A stretch of DNA of 64,000 nt from a virus (Duplodnaviria > Caudoviricetes): positions 160,001-224,000 of the IMG/VR virus record IMGVR_UViG_3300027740_000003, one strand, 5' to 3'. How positions within the stretch are numbered: the stretch's first letter is position 1; each line of letters opens with the position of its first letter. The notes beneath the pieces are model-generated. The model was not told where the DNA came from, searched no databases, and saw only the letters and a list, made by a program, of their open reading frames with translations. This document shows, piece after piece, positions 1,065 through 53,450 of this stretch. Made by a program: the position numbers and the translations under genes.

Positions 1065-1156
1065 AAGAATATGTTCCGATTCGAACGGAATTTAACCAAT
1101 ATAGGACTCGAACCTATTTAACCTCGTCAGGTTGGGAAACCCATCCCCATATTCTT
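1065..1156 (-). ncRNA. tRNA-like RNA with 9-bp acceptor-like stem and two T-arms
   Basis: AAGAATATG/CATATTCTT closes GGGA-TGGGTT-TCCC, AACCT-GACG-AGGTT, ATAGG-TTCGAGT-CCTAT and TTCCG-TTCGAAT-CGGAA; fills the gap between tRNA-Asp and tRNA-Pro. Confidence 0.6.
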
Positions 1157-1237: not shown

Positions 1238-1471
1238 TTATGCACACAATATAAACCTTATAGGTTCTTTAACAATTTCCCAACTAAATATACATTTTAA
1301 ACTTTTATAGTCGTATTCTGTTTTATATGGGACAACAACCGCACCAATAAGAGAACCATATTGGTTTACATATTTACATTTTAAATTATTCATGGCATTA
1401 GTGATTTTGTTAAATTTTCTTTCTCTAATTTCACCTGGTGTCAAAGAAACTGTTTCGATTATTCTTTCCAT
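1238..1471 (-). CDS. Hypothetical protein (77 aa)
   Basis: Likely start MERIIETV at 1471; the longer track ORF (to 1630) runs through the tRNA-His gene. Confidence 0.55.
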   Translation of the reverse strand: MERIIETVSLTPGEIRERKFNKITNAMNNLKCKYVNQYGSLIGAVVVPYKTEYDYKSLKCIFSWEIVKEPIRFILCA

Positions 1472-1483
1472 ATTATTCCTAAG

Positions 1484-1605
1484 AGGCCTGGGAGAGATTT
1501 GAACTCTCGACCCGGAACTTATCTTTGGATCTTCCAGACTTGAACTGGAAAGAGACGTGTATCTAGATCCCACAGGTTCCCGCTCTTCCTCTGAGCTACC
1601 AGGCC
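1484..1605 (-). tRNA. tRNA-His(GUG) with 50-nt anticodon-loop insertion (putative intron about 1569-1520)
   Basis: GGCCTGG/CCAGGCC acceptor with possible A-1:U73 pair, GCTC/GAGC D-stem, GGAAC...GTTCC anticodon stem enclosing CTGTGG[50 nt]A, GAGAG-TTCAAAT-CTCTC T-arm. Splice register, and so anticodon identity, is ambiguous. Confidence 0.75.
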
Positions 1606-1633: not shown

Positions 1634-1824
1634 CTAAAGCTTGGGGTGCTCTGCCATTGAGCTAGTTATTCTGATTATTCATTTCTTCGAGCCGGCACAA
1701 AGACGGCAGTTAGCTACCTGCCTAGCATTGCTTTTGTCCTAAGACATAACGGCTGAGAGGAAATTGCCTTTGCAGGGCTGATTTCTTCAGAATAGCAAGG
1801 ATTCGAACCTCTTCTCCCCATTAG
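1634..1824 (-). ncRNA. Circularly permuted tRNA-like RNA (3' half precedes 5' half)
   Basis: TGGGG-AGAA-GAGG-TTCGAAT-CCTT-GCTATTCTG (1820-1788), then 114 nt, then CAGAATAAC-TA-GCTC-AATGGCA-GAGC-A-CCCCA (1673-1642); the acceptor-like and anticodon-like stems pair across the halves. Confidence 0.7.
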
Positions 1825-1898
1825 TGGCCTGAATCGGATTTGCGCCGATGACACCAAACTTTTCAGACTTGTGCTCTACGTAGCTGAGCTATCAGGCC
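1825..1898 (-). tRNA. tRNA-Phe(GAA), atypical T-loop
   Basis: GGCCTGA/TCAGGCC acceptor, CAAGT-CTGAAAA-GTTTG anticodon arm, ATCGG-CGCAAAT-CCGAT T-arm, A73. Confidence 0.85.
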
Positions 1899-1907
1899 AT
1901 ATATAAG

Positions 1908-1991
1908 TGGTGATGGTTGGATTTGCACCAACACAGGATAACCGGGAGTTTTACAGACTCTTGCCTTCGCTAAAAATAGGCGAGCACCACC
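1908..1991 (-). tRNA. tRNA-Tyr(GUA), long variable arm, atypical T-loop
   Basis: GGTGGTG/CATCACC acceptor, CTGTAAA anticodon loop, 12-nt variable region, GTTGG-TGCAAAT-CCAAC T-arm, A73. Confidence 0.85.
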
Positions 1992-7643: not shown

Positions 7644-7832
7644 TCAACCATTTTTATACCCATCCTTCGCCCAACCACTTCCTTTTAAATGAAATGGTGG
7701 GGCTCCTGATATTAATCTTTTAGCAGATTCTTTTCCACATTTTGGGCATATTTTAATGACAGGATCTGTAATCTTTTGATCTTCTTTCCATTCGTGTTTG
7801 CAATATTCACAGATGTAATCGTATTCTATCAT
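7644..7832 (-). CDS. FmdB-family zinc-ribbon protein
   Basis: YDYICEYCKHEW...CPKCG...RLIS...F.LKGSGWAKDGY. Confidence 0.85.
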   Translation of the reverse strand: MIEYDYICEYCKHEWKEDQKITDPVIKICPKCGKESAKRLISGAPPFHLKGSGWAKDGYKNG

Positions 7833-8752
7833 TTGAAAAACTCCATAGCATCAGCATATTTGAATCCACATCTAGAAGCAAAGGTTTTATCAGACGTCAT
7901 GTCTCCAACCATAATGCATTCTTTAGGATTTAGTTTATATTTCTCTACAAACTCTATCCCTATTCCAGGCATAGGTTTCCTCTTCCATGATATAATCGGA
8001 GGAACTTTAGATGTATCAAATTGATACTCTATATCTAACCCAATCAATTTATTAGTATGTTCAAAACAAGCAGTGGCAGCTTCTATTGTTAAATCTCCTT
8101 TTGCTACACCGCTTTGATTAGATGCTCCTAATAATTTGTATCCTTTTTCCAGGTATGATTTTAAAACCTCTGTTCTTCTTGGCAATAATTTTATTTGATC
8201 TGTGCTTGTTGGGAACATACCGTTTCCATTAACAATTTCTCTTAATGTTCCGTCATAGTCCAATATTAATGCTTTATTAACATATTCTGATTCCCATTTC
8301 CTAGTAAAGTTATTCTTAATTATTTCTGAAAATCCCTCGTTTATATTTGGTTTTTCAAATTCTTTGTTGGCTTTGAATAATACTGCCGGTGGAAATGTGT
8401 TTGGATCTTTTTCCTTTTTTAACTCTTCGGGAGTTAATACTTTGCCAAATTTAGAACACATTCTCCTACATGCATTAACTTGACAATCTTCTATACTGGT
8501 AGTTTGCCAGATACATTTAATTTCAACATTATATTTCTCAGCCAGATCAATAAAAGGTTTTCTATCTGAAACTTTAGTAAACAAATTATCTATAATAACA
8601 TCTTTTGATGAAGATATTAGAACTTCTAGTTTAGGCAGAAGATCAACAACTTTTCCGCCTACAAGATCTCTGTTAAGTCTTTCGTAGGTTGGATATTGGT
8701 TAGTTATTGTTGTTTTTCCTGAAGCTGGCAAACCACAAACAAGTAAAATCAT
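7829..8752 (-). CDS. Bifunctional polynucleotide kinase (AAA_33) / HAD phosphatase, Pnkp-like
   Basis: N-terminal GLPASGKT P-loop; C-terminal DYDGT, RKP and MVGD..SD HAD motifs. Confidence 0.85.
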   Translation of the reverse strand: MILLVCGLPASGKTTITNQYPTYERLNRDLVGGKVVDLLPKLEVLISSSKDVIIDNLFTKVSDRKPFIDLAEKYNVEIKCIWQTTSIEDCQVNACRRMCSKFGKVLTPEELKKEKDPNTFPPAVLFKANKEFEKPNINEGFSEIIKNNFTRKWESEYVNKALILDYDGTLREIVNGNGMFPTSTDQIKLLPRRTEVLKSYLEKGYKLLGASNQSGVAKGDLTIEAATACFEHTNKLIGLDIEYQFDTSKVPPIISWKRKPMPGIGIEFVEKYKLNPKECIMVGDMTSDKTFASRCGFKYADAMEFFK

Positions 8753-9866: not shown

Positions 9867-10037
9867 CTACTTTGCAATAGTCGTGCCAACATTTGGACGG
9901 CGAATATAAATTTCTAGGCCTAAAATTTTAATAAATGAATAATTCCCCATAATTTTTGTAAATTGGTTTCTTCTGAAGCAGAATAACCAATCTGTTGTGG
10001 GAAGCCAATTAAACCAAACGTTTCCTAGTTTTCTCAT
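9867..10037 (-). CDS. Small hypothetical protein (56 aa, not in track)
   Basis: MRKLGNVWFNWLPTTDWLFCFRRNQF...; ATGA overlap with the Thg1 stop. Confidence 0.5.
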   Translation of the reverse strand: MRKLGNVWFNWLPTTDWLFCFRRNQFTKIMGNYSFIKILGLEIYIRRPNVGTTIAK

Positions 10038-10786
10038 TTTTCATCTTGCTCCAAAGCTTTTTCAATTATTAAACTGTCCTCCGAGAAAATTGGAGTTTCC
10101 GAGCTGGCATAGATTTTACTTCTTATAGATCCAGAATCAGATGTTTCTTTTGCCCTACATAAACATATTCCAAGTTTTTCCCAATCTGATAATTTGTCCC
10201 AATCTATTCCTTTGTTTTTTAACATTAATTTCATCTCTTTACATGTTTTGTTCATTAGCTGCTTATGAGAGAAATTTGCTTGTGCTAGACTTGATACGCT
10301 ATTTCTTATCGTGTCAAGTTGCCTCCAATAATAATAATTCACCACATCTTCTCTTGGAACTACGAAGGCCCGGCAATCAAAGAGAGCGGGGTTCTTGGGA
10401 ACGCTTTTCCCACTGGCGAGGATGAATTCTAAAACAGCTTTGTTGAAGGCTGCTGTAGCGATACTGGCAGAGACTGAAACGACCTTAGACAGCTTACTGC
10501 CAAACCAGGGCTGGGTATTGAATTTCCGGTATGGATTTATTAAAATAGAGATCTCGTCAGATTGAGTATAAGCAAACTCAGCTCCGGATATTTGTTTAAT
10601 GAGAGCCGATGAGGTTTCAATCATTCCGTGTCGGATCGCAGGATCCCATGGTTTATCAAACTTTTTGGTATACGAAGAAAAATGGCAACCATCAACACGA
10701 ATAATAATTGGAGACCGGGGAACTAAAAATATTTCACTAGACAATTCATATTGTTTCATCCTTTTTCCCAAATTATTAAATTTCAT
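10034..10786 (-). CDS. thg1: tRNA-His guanylyltransferase Thg1-like 3'-5' polymerase
   Basis: RMKQYE, IIIRVDG..F, YTQSDEISIL, FDCRAF and YYWRQ.D motifs. Confidence 0.92.
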   Translation of the reverse strand: MKFNNLGKRMKQYELSSEIFLVPRSPIIIRVDGCHFSSYTKKFDKPWDPAIRHGMIETSSALIKQISGAEFAYTQSDEISILINPYRKFNTQPWFGSKLSKVVSVSASIATAAFNKAVLEFILASGKSVPKNPALFDCRAFVVPREDVVNYYYWRQLDTIRNSVSSLAQANFSHKQLMNKTCKEMKLMLKNKGIDWDKLSDWEKLGICLCRAKETSDSGSIRSKIYASSETPIFSEDSLIIEKALEQDEK

Positions 10787-10790
10787 ATAT

Positions 10791-11588
10791 TTAATTTATT
10801 TTTTTGTGGAAGGCTCTGTTGCAGATATAGCATTTGTATGCCTGTCTTGTTGCAACTTTATTATTGTAAGTTTTACCATTTTTAAAAGTTTTATTTAAAC
10901 AAAATTTGCACGGAACATTTTCTTTATCATTTAATAATTGATAATTTTTTCTCCAAATATCTGATTTTCTATCCATAAAATCAAATACAGGATCTATTAA
11001 ATCAACAAATTTTTTAACATTTTTTTTATTAGTAATATACAATATCGGTTGAAACTTGTTTTTACGATCTGTATACCCTAAAGATGTTTTTATATCAAAT
11101 TTTGACAGTTCTTTTTGCAGAATTTTTATATCATTTTCTGAAAATGAATGCGTAGATAGTTTTATTGAATAACGTCCTTTTTTGATAACAATTGATCCGT
11201 CATCTGCAAACCAAGTTGCTATTATTTCTGCATTTAAACACAAATCTTCAGGAATTGTCTTTTTGCCATTTTTATACCATTTTTTATGTAATGATGTAAA
11301 AAATCTATTACATTTTGTTCTTAACCTGATGTTATAATAAATTTTATTAGTTCTTTTGTCGAAAATAGCCCCTTCTGATACGGACTTTTCTGTAAGAAAA
11401 TTTATTAATTTATTTTTGCTAAAAAGAAGGTAATTTTTATCTTTTATTGCTCGGGTTAATTTTAAACAAGCATTTTTGCCAAATTTGTGTAGTTCAAGAT
11501 GTCCGTCTCCTAAAATTAACCCCAAAACATGATTCATTATATTCATAATTAAATGAAAAATTATTACCAGACATGTAATTATTTTCAT
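10791..11588 (-). mobile_element. Double-motif LAGLIDADG homing endonuclease with C-terminal zinc ribbon
   Basis: VLGLILGDGHL and IIATWFADDGSI motifs; CKFC...CYIC tail. Confidence 0.88.
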
Positions 11589-21328: not shown

Positions 21329-21907
21329 CTAGCTACCGTTGTCAATGAGCTTTATACGAAAATCTTCGTCAAAGTTTATTTTTCCTTGTTCCCATAATTC
21401 TGTTATTATTTCTTTAACTATACTTCGATCAAATCCCTCTTTAGAAAGAAGATCTTGAATTTCTTGCGAACTATAAGAACCAGAAGTAATTGTTCTTATT
21501 ACCGCATCTGTTGTTTTGAAAAATTCCATGGCTGTTTTCCCCCAACGTATTGTTGTAGAATATGTAATTGGTGTATTTTCATATGATACATCGATTAGTT
21601 GACAATAATTTTTAGGAACAGGGTTGGGAACTTCCCCATGAATATCCAAAGCGCCACCACTGTTCACATAATCTTCTTTTTGTTTTCTTAACTTTTCTTT
21701 TTGATCATTAATCTCTTTTTCACGCTTTTGATTATTTTCATATATAATTTTTTCTCTTTCTTCTGGCATTAAAAAAGAATAATTTGAGTATTCTTTTCTA
21801 GTAACACCAACCTCATCATAATCAACAATATCTATACATCTATTGTGTTCTTTACAAAGAAGTTTATATTTCTGCAAAAACTCTATGTCCTTTTCTTCTT
21901 CAGTCAT
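21329..21907 (-). CDS. Hypothetical protein
   Basis: 192-aa ORF; possible C-terminal wHTH. Confidence 0.7.
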   Translation of the reverse strand: MTEEEKDIEFLQKYKLLCKEHNRCIDIVDYDEVGVTRKEYSNYSFLMPEEREKIIYENNQKREKEINDQKEKLRKQKEDYVNSGGALDIHGEVPNPVPKNYCQLIDVSYENTPITYSTTIRWGKTAMEFFKTTDAVIRTITSGSYSSQEIQDLLSKEGFDRSIVKEIITELWEQGKINFDEDFRIKLIDNGS

Positions 21908-53135: not shown

Positions 53136-53450
53136 TTATACTATTTGTTTTAGTTCTTCACCAATTTTATTACAGTTATCCTGGGTCGTATTATAACTAT
53201 CTTCCCCAGTGATATTTGCCCTGAAATTTTCATCAGTAGCAATTTGTTTACGAATCTTCTTTCTCTCTTCTTTAATGTAATTTTTAAGATCTCTGCCTGT
53301 TAGAGATACTCTAATAGCAGGAACCCCAAGTATTACTCTCCTTGCTTTGCCCCCGCATTCCGGGCAAATTGTCGGAGGATCTTGCTTAATAGAATAGGTA
53401 TCCTGCCAAGCGTATTTACATTCATAACACTCATGATCATATTCGGGCAT
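53136..53450 (-). CDS. FmdB-family zinc-ribbon protein (second paralogue)
   Basis: MPEYDHECYEC...CPECGG..RRVI; start 53450. Confidence 0.8.
   Translation of the reverse strand: MPEYDHECYECKYAWQDTYSIKQDPPTICPECGGKARRVILGVPAIRVSLTGRDLKNYIKEERKKIRKQIATDENFRANITGEDSYNTTQDNCNKIGEELKQIV

What the first reader, a model, noticed from the sequence alone, without database searches (positions are those of the whole stretch)
1634..1824. Circularly permuted tRNA-like gene with a structured 114-nt domain on the acceptor end
SEEN (minus strand): just after tRNA-Phe comes a tRNA 3' half (TGGGG, variable AGAA, GAGG-TTCGAAT-CCTT, GCTATTCTG), then 114 nt, then the matching 5' half (CAGAATAAC, TA, GCTC-AATGGCA-GAGC, A, CCCCA). 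The acceptor-like stem is 9 bp with one mismatch. CCCCA/TGGGG continues as CTAA/TTAG past a 4-nt bulge (AGCT). The insert has its own helices (AGCCG/CGGCT, TGTC/GACA, GGCAG/CTGCC) and a GAAGAAAT direct repeat at both ends. KNOWN: permuted tRNA genes occur in Cyanidioschyzon and Thermofilum, and bacterial YrlA-type Y RNAs have this T-arm-before-D-arm topology. INFERENCE: the would-be loop (AG-CTT-TA) is non-canonical and no Ro-binding consensus is evident, so this is more likely a tRNA-mimic ncRNA or decoy than a decoding tRNA.
Basis: partly seen in the sequence, partly recalled or inferred. Interest (0 to 1): 0.85.

Follow-up and report, generated by a model that had tools for sequence, protein, structure and literature searches.

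The report
Back-to-front tRNA look-alike in megaphage
Inside the tRNA gene array of a 435-kb soil phage lies a small gene for a tRNA look-alike that is sealed at the amino-acid end by a 114-base insert and open where the anticodon should be. This is the design of bacterial YrlA "Y RNAs", but the phage carries none of their known protein partners, so it is most likely an orphan tRNA mimic and not a working tRNA.

Summary
On the minus strand, 4 nt after tRNA-Phe, the order is: anticodon-stem strand, 4-nt variable loop, T arm, 9-bp acceptor-like stem closed by 114 nt, U8-A9, D arm, complementary anticodon-stem strand. When the two halves are rejoined in silico, ARAGORN draws a cloverleaf. An independent wetland assembly carries the same order.

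This connectivity matches the Rfam YrlA consensus. However, the element fails the YrlA model, has no basal stems and no GNCGAA motif. The phage has no Ro60/TROVE gene and no DUF7873 gene. No anticodon loop can be rebuilt, there is no BHB, and the phage has no splicing endonuclease or RtcB, so a decoding permuted tRNA is unlikely.

Related huge phages carry many such modules. Some sit beside Ro60, some beside DUF7873, and some are orphans that start 1-5 nt after a tRNA, as this one does. Their acceptor-closing loops range from 5 to about 118 nt.

The scan has noted this kind often on other DNA. Here it is an orphan with an unusually large insert.

Best reading (0.55): a YrlA-type tRNA mimic released by tRNA processing. 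Expression, partner and role are untested, and only one 95% relative exists. I class it as a new variant of a known kind.

The parts
1821..1824 (-). CUAA, the first 4 nt after the tRNA-Phe discriminator. It can pair with UUAG at 1634-1637. It is probably the generic C-U-A-A/G trailer of this phage's tRNAs.
   Evidence: about 10 of 23 tRNAs are followed by C-T-A-A/G.
1816..1820 (-). Anticodon-stem strand UGGGG (tRNA positions 39-43).
   Evidence: pairs 5 of 5 with 1642-1646.
1812..1815 (-). 4-nt variable loop AGAA.
1797..1811 (-). T arm: 4-bp stem GAGG/CCUU (one G.U) with the canonical loop UUCGAAU.
   Evidence: Models R1 and R2 hit 1798-1810.
1788..1796 (-). Acceptor-like stem, 3' strand. 1790-1796 correspond to tRNA positions 66-72, U1789 is at the discriminator position, and G1788 follows.
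   Evidence: 9 bp with 1665-1673, one A.C mismatch.
1674..1787 (-). 114-nt insert closing the acceptor-like stem. A 92-nt core (1689-1780) lies between GAAGAAAU direct repeats (1781-1788 and 1681-1688). Predicted helices: AGCCG/CGGCU, UGUC/GACA, GGCAG/CUGCC.
   Evidence: z = -1.59. Single copy in the genome. Absent from viral contigs. In the wetland relative, 1681-1757 is unchanged and 5 changes cluster in 1758-1777.
1665..1673 (-). Acceptor-like stem, 5' strand. G1671 corresponds to tRNA position 1, and C1673 and A1672 extend the stem by 2 bp.
1648..1664 (-). U8-A9 and the D arm GCUC-AAUGGCA-GAGC (A14, G18, G19 and A21 present).
   Evidence: Matches the YrlA consensus D arm. The wetland variant keeps the stem and has a loop 1 nt shorter.
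1642..1647 (-). A26 and the anticodon-stem strand CCCCA (positions 27-31).
1634..1641 (-). AGCU bulge and UUAG, the possible 4-bp extension of the open anticodon-side stem.
   Evidence: Not conserved in comparable modules of other phages.
1825..1898 (-). Upstream neighbour tRNA-Phe(GAA). Its 3' processing would create the element's 5' end.
   Evidence: 54.9 bits.
1484..1605 (-). Downstream neighbour, a tRNA with anticodon GUG and a 50-nt insertion in the anticodon loop. Its RNase P cut would free the element's 3' tail.

Best explanation
The element is a non-decoding tRNA mimic of the YrlA type. It is an L-shaped tRNA body (D arm, T arm, acceptor/T coaxial stack, 5-bp anticodon stem) whose chain runs T arm, closed acceptor-like hairpin, D arm. 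The RNA ends therefore lie where the anticodon loop would be, and the amino-acid end is capped.

Inferred steps:
1. It is co-transcribed with the minus-strand tRNA array.
2. It is released by the cuts that mature its neighbours: the 3' processing of tRNA-Phe gives its 5' end at about 1824, and RNase P at the next tRNA frees its 3' tail.
3. It then presents a tRNA elbow and acceptor/T helix to tRNA-recognising proteins of the host or phage.

The 114-nt cap is most likely a lineage-specific insertion in what was a loop of about 14 nt.

Sub-hypothesis (about 0.35 if the main reading holds): as shown for Mycobacterium smegmatis YrlA, the 7-bp-plus acceptor stem lets RNase P cut 5' of G1671. The tail is then trimmed and CCA is added, possibly by the phage's own two CCA-type enzymes. 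This would discard the insert and leave a two-piece, anticodon-less tRNA-like RNA.

The element has no Ro60-binding module and no known partner gene in this phage, so it is an orphan variant and not a member of the YrlA/Ro60 system.
For: Shown:
- Exact permuted cloverleaf, far above chance.
- No room for the missing halves of ordinary tRNAs: 4 nt upstream and 36 nt downstream.
- The same order in an independent assembly.
- Connectivity and D/T arms match the Rfam YrlA consensus.
- No ORF of 50 aa or more overlaps the element.

Context in related huge phages:
- The closest long relative (62% Pnkp identity, syntenic) has, beside its tRNA-Phe, a closed-acceptor module with two basal stems. That module and two homologues share a consensus fold in which 13 pairs show compensatory changes.
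- Related phages hold such modules next to TROVE/Ro60 (G034) and next to DUF7873 (G034, G035).
- Orphan modules that start 1-5 nt after an upstream tRNA, as here, occur in G024/G042, G037 and G038, with closing loops of 8-103 nt. They include two copies in one genome that differ in every stem yet still pair.

Literature and toolkit:
- The YrlA T and D arms are modified by TruB and DusA. M. smegmatis YrlA, which has a 7-bp acceptor stem, is cut by RNase P and receives CCA (PMC4201824).
- The phage encodes two CCA-type nucleotidyltransferases, Thg1, Pnkp and Rnl1/Rnl2-like ligases.
Against: - There is no expression data; no RNA run holds the locus.
- Only one relative of the element itself exists, at about 95% identity. 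It gives no compensatory change.
- No orthologue turned up in viral contigs or metagenome contigs with four patterns.
- The Rfam YrlA model gives no hit even at E <= 10, and my own models cannot bridge the insert.
- Fold stability is not better than that of shuffled sequence.
- The T stem has 4 bp, the acceptor stem has an A.C mismatch, and A15 with A at the last variable position gives no standard Levitt pair.
- The 2 bp that extend the acceptor stem past position 1 would hinder or shift RNase P cleavage.
- This tRNA array is full of odd tRNA-derived pieces, so recombination debris is a live alternative.
Confidence: 0.55

Rival explanations
1. The element is non-functional debris of tRNA-array rearrangement. 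A tandem pair of one tRNA gene lost its outer halves, or some other illegitimate recombination took place, and left a 3' half, the old spacer and a 5' half. These still pair only because they descend from one tRNA.
For: - The same array holds a five-armed tRNA-like element, a tRNA with a 50-nt loop insertion and a weak Tyr-like tRNA.
- There is no covariation for this element.
- Fold stability is ordinary.
- It is unique to near relatives.
- It has a 4-bp T stem and an A.C mismatch.
Against: - Two independent deletions would have to end exactly at the anticodon loop and leave a perfect 5-bp stem.
- There is no close paralogue among the phage's 23 tRNAs.
- All the tRNA tertiary-contact bases checked (U8, A14, G18, G19, A21 and the T loop) are intact; only the 15:48 Levitt pair is non-standard.
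- In the wetland relative the changes avoid the stems of the tRNA-like parts: outside the insert the only differences are in the D loop and at position 26.
- The same compact layout, abutting an upstream tRNA, recurs in other huge phages with fully different but pairing stems.
Confidence: 0.22
2. The element is a cargo-release cassette. The tRNA-like fold exists to let RNase Z (after U1789) and RNase P (before G1671) excise the enclosed RNA of about 116 nt, and that RNA is the functional product.
For: - One fold defines both ends of the insert.
- Insert positions 1681-1757 are unchanged in the relative, while 5 changes cluster in 20 nt.
- Other modules also carry loops of 36-103 nt with hairpins of their own.
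- RNase P cleavage of a YrlA acceptor hairpin is documented (PMC4201824).
Against: - The inserts of different modules share no sequence.
- The insert is single copy, and no Rfam family reaches even its gathering score on it; the only hit is HTH-XRE at 15.7 bits, E = 6.3.
- Its fold z-score is only -1.59.
- The variable loop length fits a discarded spacer equally well.
Confidence: 0.1
3. The element is a genuine Y RNA that binds a host-encoded Ro60/Rsr. On this reading it is a divergent member of the YrlA system.
For: - It has YrlA connectivity and the YrlA D arm.
- Ro60 with adjacent YrlA-like RNAs occurs in related phages.
- A near-motif CUCGAAG lies in the insert.
Against: - There are no basal stems and no GNCGAAN0-1G motif.
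- The phage has no TROVE domain, no Ro60 vWA domain and no tblastn match to the clade's own TROVE proteins.
- The host is unknown.
Confidence: 0.08
4. The element is a true permuted or split decoding tRNA. The ends are joined at the anticodon loop, for example by the phage's Pnkp and Rnl1, and the insert is then removed by RNase P and RNase Z.
For: - The 3' half precedes the 5' half.
- The phage encodes Rnl1-like and Pnkp enzymes, which seal anticodon-loop breaks in T4.
- The phage also encodes CCA-adding enzymes.
Against: - The flanks give no 7-nt loop with U33. Joining the processed ends would give a loop of about 40 nt.
- There is no BHB motif.
- There is no splicing endonuclease or RtcB.
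- Comparable modules in other phages have flanks of unrelated length.
Confidence: 0.04

Closest known systems
YrlA (Y RNA-like A; Rfam RF02553; Chen et al. 2014, PMC4201824; Wang et al. 2018, bioRxiv 10.1101/312249)
   Same: - Chain order: anticodon-side stem, V region, T arm, loop-closed acceptor-like stem, U-A, D arm GCUC..GAGC, anticodon-side stem.
- No anticodon loop and no free CCA end.
- Canonical T and D loops.
- Found in phages as well as bacteria, and can be co-transcribed with tRNAs.
   Different: - No two-part basal stem, no GNCGAAN0-1G motif and no rsr gene nearby or anywhere in the phage.
- No hit to the Rfam model.
- The acceptor-like stem is 9 bp and capped by 114 nt instead of a few nt.
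- A 5-bp anticodon stem plus a position-26 base, as in a real tRNA.
[quoted passage not shown]
   Same: A 7-bp or longer acceptor-like stem, which that paper names as the determinant of RNase P cleavage. CCA-adding enzymes are at hand.
   Different: Cleavage is untested here. Two extra base pairs beyond position 1 could hinder or shift the cut.
Circularly permuted tRNA genes of Cyanidioschyzon merolae and Thermofilum pendens
   Same: The 3' half lies upstream of the 5' half, the two are joined by an intervening sequence, and the acceptor strands are complementary.
   Different: Those genes have a BHB at the leader-trailer junction, a splicing endonuclease and ligase, and yield a complete anticodon loop. 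None of these is found here.
Two-piece (permuted) tmRNA
   Same: T arm and acceptor 3' strand come first, then an intervening segment, then the acceptor 5' strand. The anticodon stem is replaced by an open helix.
   Different: There is no tag reading frame or pseudoknots, and only 36 nt lie downstream. ARAGORN, which finds permuted tmRNA, reports only the phage's standard tmRNA elsewhere. A full D stem is present here.
DUF7873-associated tRNA-mimic RNAs
   Same: Back-to-front, anticodon-less tRNA module, often inside phage tRNA clusters, without Ro60. I confirmed the gene-RNA adjacency in two related phages.
   Different: This phage has no DUF7873 gene. The element has one head and about 190 nt, and is not a 360-400-nt RNA following that gene.

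Membership tests
YrlA / Ro60 Y RNA (RF02553) | T arm, then a loop-closed acceptor-like (AS) hairpin, then the D arm, enclosed by an anticodon-side stem. | tested here: met
   compared with the Rfam consensus structure line.
YrlA / Ro60 Y RNA (RF02553) | Nearly invariant D and T stem-loops. | tested here: met
   The D arm (UA-GCUC, 7-nt loop, GAGC) differs from the consensus only in loop length. The T loop is UUCGAAU. The T-stem sequence differs.
YrlA / Ro60 Y RNA (RF02553) | Score at or above the Rfam gathering threshold (69 bits). | tested here: not met
   No hit at E <= 10 on 1300-2300. The best hit in the genome is 13 bits, elsewhere. The 114-nt insert and the missing basal stems probably preclude a score.
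YrlA / Ro60 Y RNA (RF02553) | Ro60/Rsr (TROVE) gene within about 4 kb on the same strand. | tested here: not met
   No TROVE at E <= 1, no Ro60 vWA domain, and tblastn with four TROVE proteins of related phages gives a best E of 0.35. A host rsr gene could not be tested.
YrlA / Ro60 Y RNA (RF02553) | GNCGAAN0-1G motif near the 5' end, and a long basal stem formed by the RNA ends. | tested here: not met
   Only 4 nt separate tRNA-Phe from the anticodon-side strand. The motif is absent; the nearest string is CUCGAAG, inside the insert.
Circularly permuted tRNA genes | 3' half upstream of the 5' half with complementary acceptor strands. | tested here: met
Circularly permuted tRNA genes | Bulge-helix-bulge motif at the junction, and a complete 7-nt anticodon loop that can be rebuilt. 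| tested here: not met
   There is one 4-nt bulge on one strand only. The candidate loops lack U33 or are about 40 nt long.
Circularly permuted tRNA genes | tRNA splicing endonuclease and RtcB-type ligase available. | tested here: not met
   PF01974 and PF01139 are absent from the phage. The host is unknown. Rnl1-like and Pnkp enzymes are present.
Two-piece tmRNA | Tag-peptide reading frame and pseudoknots downstream of the acceptor 5' strand. | tested here: not met
   Only 36 nt lie before the next tRNA. ARAGORN reports only a standard tmRNA at genome position 97812-98149.
DUF7873-associated tRNA-mimic RNA | Encoded just downstream of a DUF7873 (PF25283) gene. | tested here: not met
   No PF25283 match at E <= 1 in the phage. 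The family is present in 4 of 45 relatives and lies 300 nt upstream of the module in L153.
Orphan T-AS-D modules of huge-phage tRNA arrays (class defined here) | - Starts 1-5 nt after an upstream tRNA.
- 5-bp open anticodon stem.
- T arm, then a 6-9-bp closed acceptor stem with a loop of variable size, then the D arm.
- No Ro60 or DUF7873 gene beside it. | tested here: met
   The window element, compared with L098:975-1089, L098:1403-1569, L142:1499-1598 and L101:1184-1254. Partner searches.

The most novel reading that the evidence does not exclude
Huge phages carry an unrecognised class of partner-less, anticodon-less tRNA bodies that ride on tRNA processing. The flanking tRNA cuts free the module. 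Its own acceptor/T helix then recruits RNase P and a 3' processing enzyme to excise whatever sits in the acceptor-closing loop. On this reading the element is a natural tRNA-scaffolded cassette that delivers a 114-116-nt small RNA with exact ends and leaves a two-piece CCA-tailed tRNA mimic behind.
Probability: 0.12. Interest if true: 0.8.

Novelty: new variant of a known kind. Interest (0 to 1): 0.5.

Why it matters
YrlA-type tRNA mimics are known as partners of Ro60, and their tRNA-like half has no assigned role. Here the tRNA-like half stands alone. It is packed between real tRNAs in a phage that has a full tRNA maturation and repair kit (24 tRNA genes by ARAGORN, one with an unreadable anticodon; a tmRNA; two CCA-type enzymes; Thg1; Pnkp; RNA ligases) but has neither Ro60 nor DUF7873.

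If the element is expressed, the tRNA-shaped module would have a function of its own. Candidates are titrating or recruiting tRNA-binding enzymes or defence nucleases, or serving as a processing handle. Huge phages would then be a place to find out what that function is. The element also warns annotators that phage tRNA arrays hide tRNA-derived RNAs that ARAGORN and Rfam miss.

Tried and rejected
- **Rfam.** The window at gathering threshold and 1300-2300 at E <= 10 gave no family for the element.
- **ARAGORN.** The element is not called.
- **Phage GenBank collection.** blastn of 900-2400 gave no match.
- **Close relatives through neighbouring proteins.** The HTH protein, ORF77 and the DUF4419 protein gave none in viral contigs. 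ORF77 has no homologue in 5.8 billion proteins.
- **DNA patterns.** Four patterns found no orthologue: a 24-mer, a T-loop/D-arm gapped pattern that returned only tandem tRNAs, and two stem-constrained patterns, for long and short loops, in metagenome contigs. A 20-mer from the insert also found nothing.
- **Covariance models.** R1 was built from one relative and R2 from six modules. Most hits in 45 related phages were junctions of tandem isoacceptor tRNAs, which are false positives, as Chen et al. also warned. Neither model can span the 118-nt loop, so the window element is found only as two fragments.
- **MITE idea.** The 8-nt direct repeats flanking a 92-nt core suggest an insertion, but there is no second copy in the genome or in IMG/VR.
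- **Ligation at the anticodon side by Rnl1.** The flank lengths in comparable modules do not give 7-nt loops.
- **RNA evidence.** No RNA run holds the locus.
Pfam on five ORFs there, a PDB sequence search of the 693-aa ORF and three whole-genome searches showed nothing Ro60-like. I did not try folds.

Full report
**Setting.** The window is bases 160001-224000 of a 435,004-bp IMG/VR virus record judged complete. It has 35% G+C and comes from a soil metagenome. ARAGORN finds 24 tRNA genes (one with an unreadable anticodon) and one tmRNA in the genome. The finding lies in a minus-strand tRNA array at the start of the window. In transcription order the array reads:
- tRNA-Glu, 2041-2113
- a weak Tyr-like tRNA, 1909-1990
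- tRNA-Phe, 1825-1898
- the element, 1824-1634
- a tRNA (GUG) with a 50-nt anticodon-loop insertion, 1484-1605
- a 77-aa ORF
- tRNA-Asp
- a five-armed tRNA-like element
- tRNA-Pro

.

**Observation.**
- Rejoining the halves through an artificial 7-nt loop yields a sequence that ARAGORN draws as a 72-nt cloverleaf with a 4-bp T stem, a 4-nt variable loop and one A.C mismatch in the acceptor stem.
- I wrote a strict scanner for this topology. It requires G53, a T loop, C61, at least 6 of 7 acceptor pairs, U8, a D arm whose loop starts with A, and 5 of 5 anticodon-stem pairs.
- The element scores 44, the top hit outside tandem tRNA pairs in the 2.0 Mb of phage DNA scanned. In the 2.36 Mb, 28 real hits score 36 or more, none does in reversed sequence (maximum 26) and none in locally shuffled sequence (maximum 32).
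- tRNA-Phe ends 4 nt upstream and the next tRNA starts 36 nt downstream. The element therefore cannot be the junction of two ordinary tRNA genes.
- Contigs of a wetland metagenome from a different study carry a relative at about 95% identity. One 161-nt contig runs from the T loop through the whole insert into the D arm, which excludes an assembly artefact.

**What it is like.** Rfam finds no family here even at E <= 10. The alignment of a sub-threshold YrlA match in a related phage nevertheless displays the Rfam YrlA consensus. That consensus runs: two basal stems, a short anticodon-side stem, a V region, the T arm, a loop-closed acceptor-like hairpin, U-A, the D arm GCUC..GAGC, and the closing strand. 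This is the element's own connectivity, and the D arm is nearly the same sequence.

Chen et al. (PMC4201824) define YrlA by four features:
- a Ro60/Rsr gene within about 4 kb;
- a GNCGAAN0-1G motif near the 5' end;
- nearly invariant T and D arms;
- the acceptor-like hairpin between them.

They also show that M. smegmatis YrlA, which has a 7-bp acceptor-like stem, is cut there by RNase P and receives CCA.

**Membership.** The element meets the connectivity and D/T-arm criteria and fails the rest.
- There are no basal stems; only 4 nt separate it from tRNA-Phe.
- The motif is absent.
- The phage has no TROVE domain at E <= 1 and no Ro60 vWA domain.
- tblastn with four TROVE proteins of related phages finds nothing.

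It also fails the tests for a true permuted tRNA gene: there is no bulge-helix-bulge, no rebuildable 7-nt loop with U33, and no splicing endonuclease or RtcB. It fails the test for a two-piece tmRNA. This scan's earlier notes describe back-to-front tRNA mimics that follow a DUF7873 gene. I confirmed that pairing in two related phages, but this phage has no DUF7873.

**Relatives.** The phage's Pnkp (7829-8752) has over a thousand homologues, many on 400-570-kb contigs.
- The closest long relative is a 117-kb JGI contig, L008, with 62% identity and the same Thg1..Pnkp..Zn-ribbon..tRNA synteny. Directly before its tRNA-Phe it has a closed-acceptor module with an 18-nt loop and two basal stems.
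- Two homologues in other phages (L090, L091) share its fold. RNAalifold finds 32 pairs, 13 of them with compensatory changes. In both homologues the acceptor 3' strand is followed by A-CCA inside the loop.
- A scan of 45 related records found TROVE in 13 and many sub-threshold YrlA-like hits. Many of those hits are tandem tRNA junctions.
- In G034, three YrlA-like RNAs lie within 1.6 kb of the TROVE gene.
- After removing tandem tRNAs, the scanner leaves a set of stand-alone modules built like the window's. Each has a 5-bp open anticodon stem and starts 1-5 nt after an upstream tRNA. Their closing loops are 8, 36, 50 and 103 nt, in G038, G037 and G024/G042. None has Ro60 or DUF7873 beside it. 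G024 and G038 have neither gene anywhere, whereas G037 has a TROVE gene about 55 kb away.
- The two G024 copies sit in repeated Glu-module-Pro units and differ in every stem while still pairing.

The window element thus belongs to a recurrent orphan class, with the largest loop seen.

**The insert.**
- The 114 nt contain a 92-nt core between 8-nt direct repeats (GAAGAAAU). Removing the core and one repeat would leave a closing loop of about 14 nt, typical of the class. This suggests an insertion.
- The core is single copy in the genome and absent from IMG/VR.
- Its fold is not significantly stable (z = -1.59).
- In the wetland relative, five of the seven differences cluster in 1758-1777. One is wobble-compatible, two lie in a loop and two break weak predicted pairs. 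Positions 1681-1757 are unchanged. In the tRNA-like parts the only differences are a D loop 1 nt shorter and a G at position 26.
- This pattern hints at constraint but is not covariation.

**Mechanism.**
- Shown: the anatomy and its family resemblance.
- Inferred: co-transcription with the array, release by neighbouring tRNA processing, and an L-shaped fold that engages tRNA-binding proteins.
- Possible: RNase P cleavage before G1671, trimming and CCA addition, as in M. smegmatis YrlA. The phage encodes two CCA-type nucleotidyltransferases, and most of its tRNA genes lack an encoded CCA. Against this, two extra base pairs extend the stem beyond position 1.
- A decoy or sponge role is speculation.

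**Verdict.** The best reading is an orphan YrlA-type tRNA mimic (0.55). Rival readings:
- recombination debris (0.22)
- cargo-release cassette (0.10)
- host-Ro60 Y RNA (0.08)
- true permuted tRNA (0.04)

It is a new variant of a known kind. The scan has noted the general design on much other phage DNA before.

Noticed in passing
window 1065-1156 (-): Five-armed tRNA-like element between tRNA-Asp and tRNA-Pro. It has a 9-bp terminal stem, a D-like hairpin, a short hairpin and two T arms. Model R2 hits 1067-1127 at 18.7 bits (E = 4e-4). The wetland relative also carries it, with 4 changes and 1 insertion.
   Followed up: partly
window 1484-1605 (-): tRNA cloverleaf (anticodon GUG) with a 50-nt insertion in the anticodon loop that contains a T-arm-like hairpin. 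It is too short for a group I intron, and the phage has no splicing endonuclease but does have Rnl1-like and Pnkp enzymes. How the insertion is removed, if it is removed at all, is unexplained.
   Followed up: partly
window 1909-1990 (-); L008:17919-18055: Sub-threshold tRNA (24.8 bits) with a GUA anticodon loop and a long variable region, missed by ARAGORN. Its counterpart in the closest relative carries a large internal insertion.
   Followed up: no
whole genome G000: About 10 of 23 tRNA genes are followed, right after the discriminator, by C-U-A-A or C-U-A-G. This may be a shared 3'-processing signal. Only about 4-5 of the genes encode CCA.
   Followed up: no
window 7829-8752, 10034-10786, 10791-11588; G000 424547-425212, 21360-21851, 414234-414680, 332101-333329: A dense tRNA maturation and repair kit: Pnkp-like kinase/phosphatase, Thg1-like guanylyltransferase, a LAGLIDADG endonuclease, an Rnl1-like ligase, two Rnl2-family ligases and two tandem CCA-type nucleotidyltransferases.
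   Followed up: partly
L008:18056-18200, L090:1455-1612, L091:1473-1625(-), L091:1797-1932(-), L136 (G002 53240-53322): A family of YrlA-like RNAs with two basal stems and a shared GAUC-N-UUCAUC stretch after the second stem, lying between tRNAs in phages that have no clear Ro60. G002 has none, and G022 has only sub-threshold TROVE hits. Two members encode A-CCA inside the acceptor-closing loop.
   Followed up: partly
G034 311318-313581 and 251982-253058; L153:377-1624: One related phage has both a TROVE/Ro60 gene followed by three YrlA-like RNAs and a DUF7873 gene followed by a YrlA-like hit. Another has DUF7873 followed 300 nt later by a module with a 67-nt closing loop.
   Followed up: partly
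L098:975-1089(-) and 1403-1569(-) (G024; identical in G042): Two orphan back-to-front modules in repeated tRNA-Glu / module / tRNA-Pro units. All their stems differ yet still pair, and their closing loops are 50 and 103 nt.
   Followed up: partly
L095:1380-1560: Interleaved tRNA-like halves: a 5' half, then a back-to-front module, then an anticodon arm and a T arm. This could be a two-bodied tRNA-like RNA.
   Followed up: no
G000 148687-148760: A tRNA with anticodon CUA (amber suppressor type). TAG ends only 32 of 350 long ORFs.
   Followed up: no
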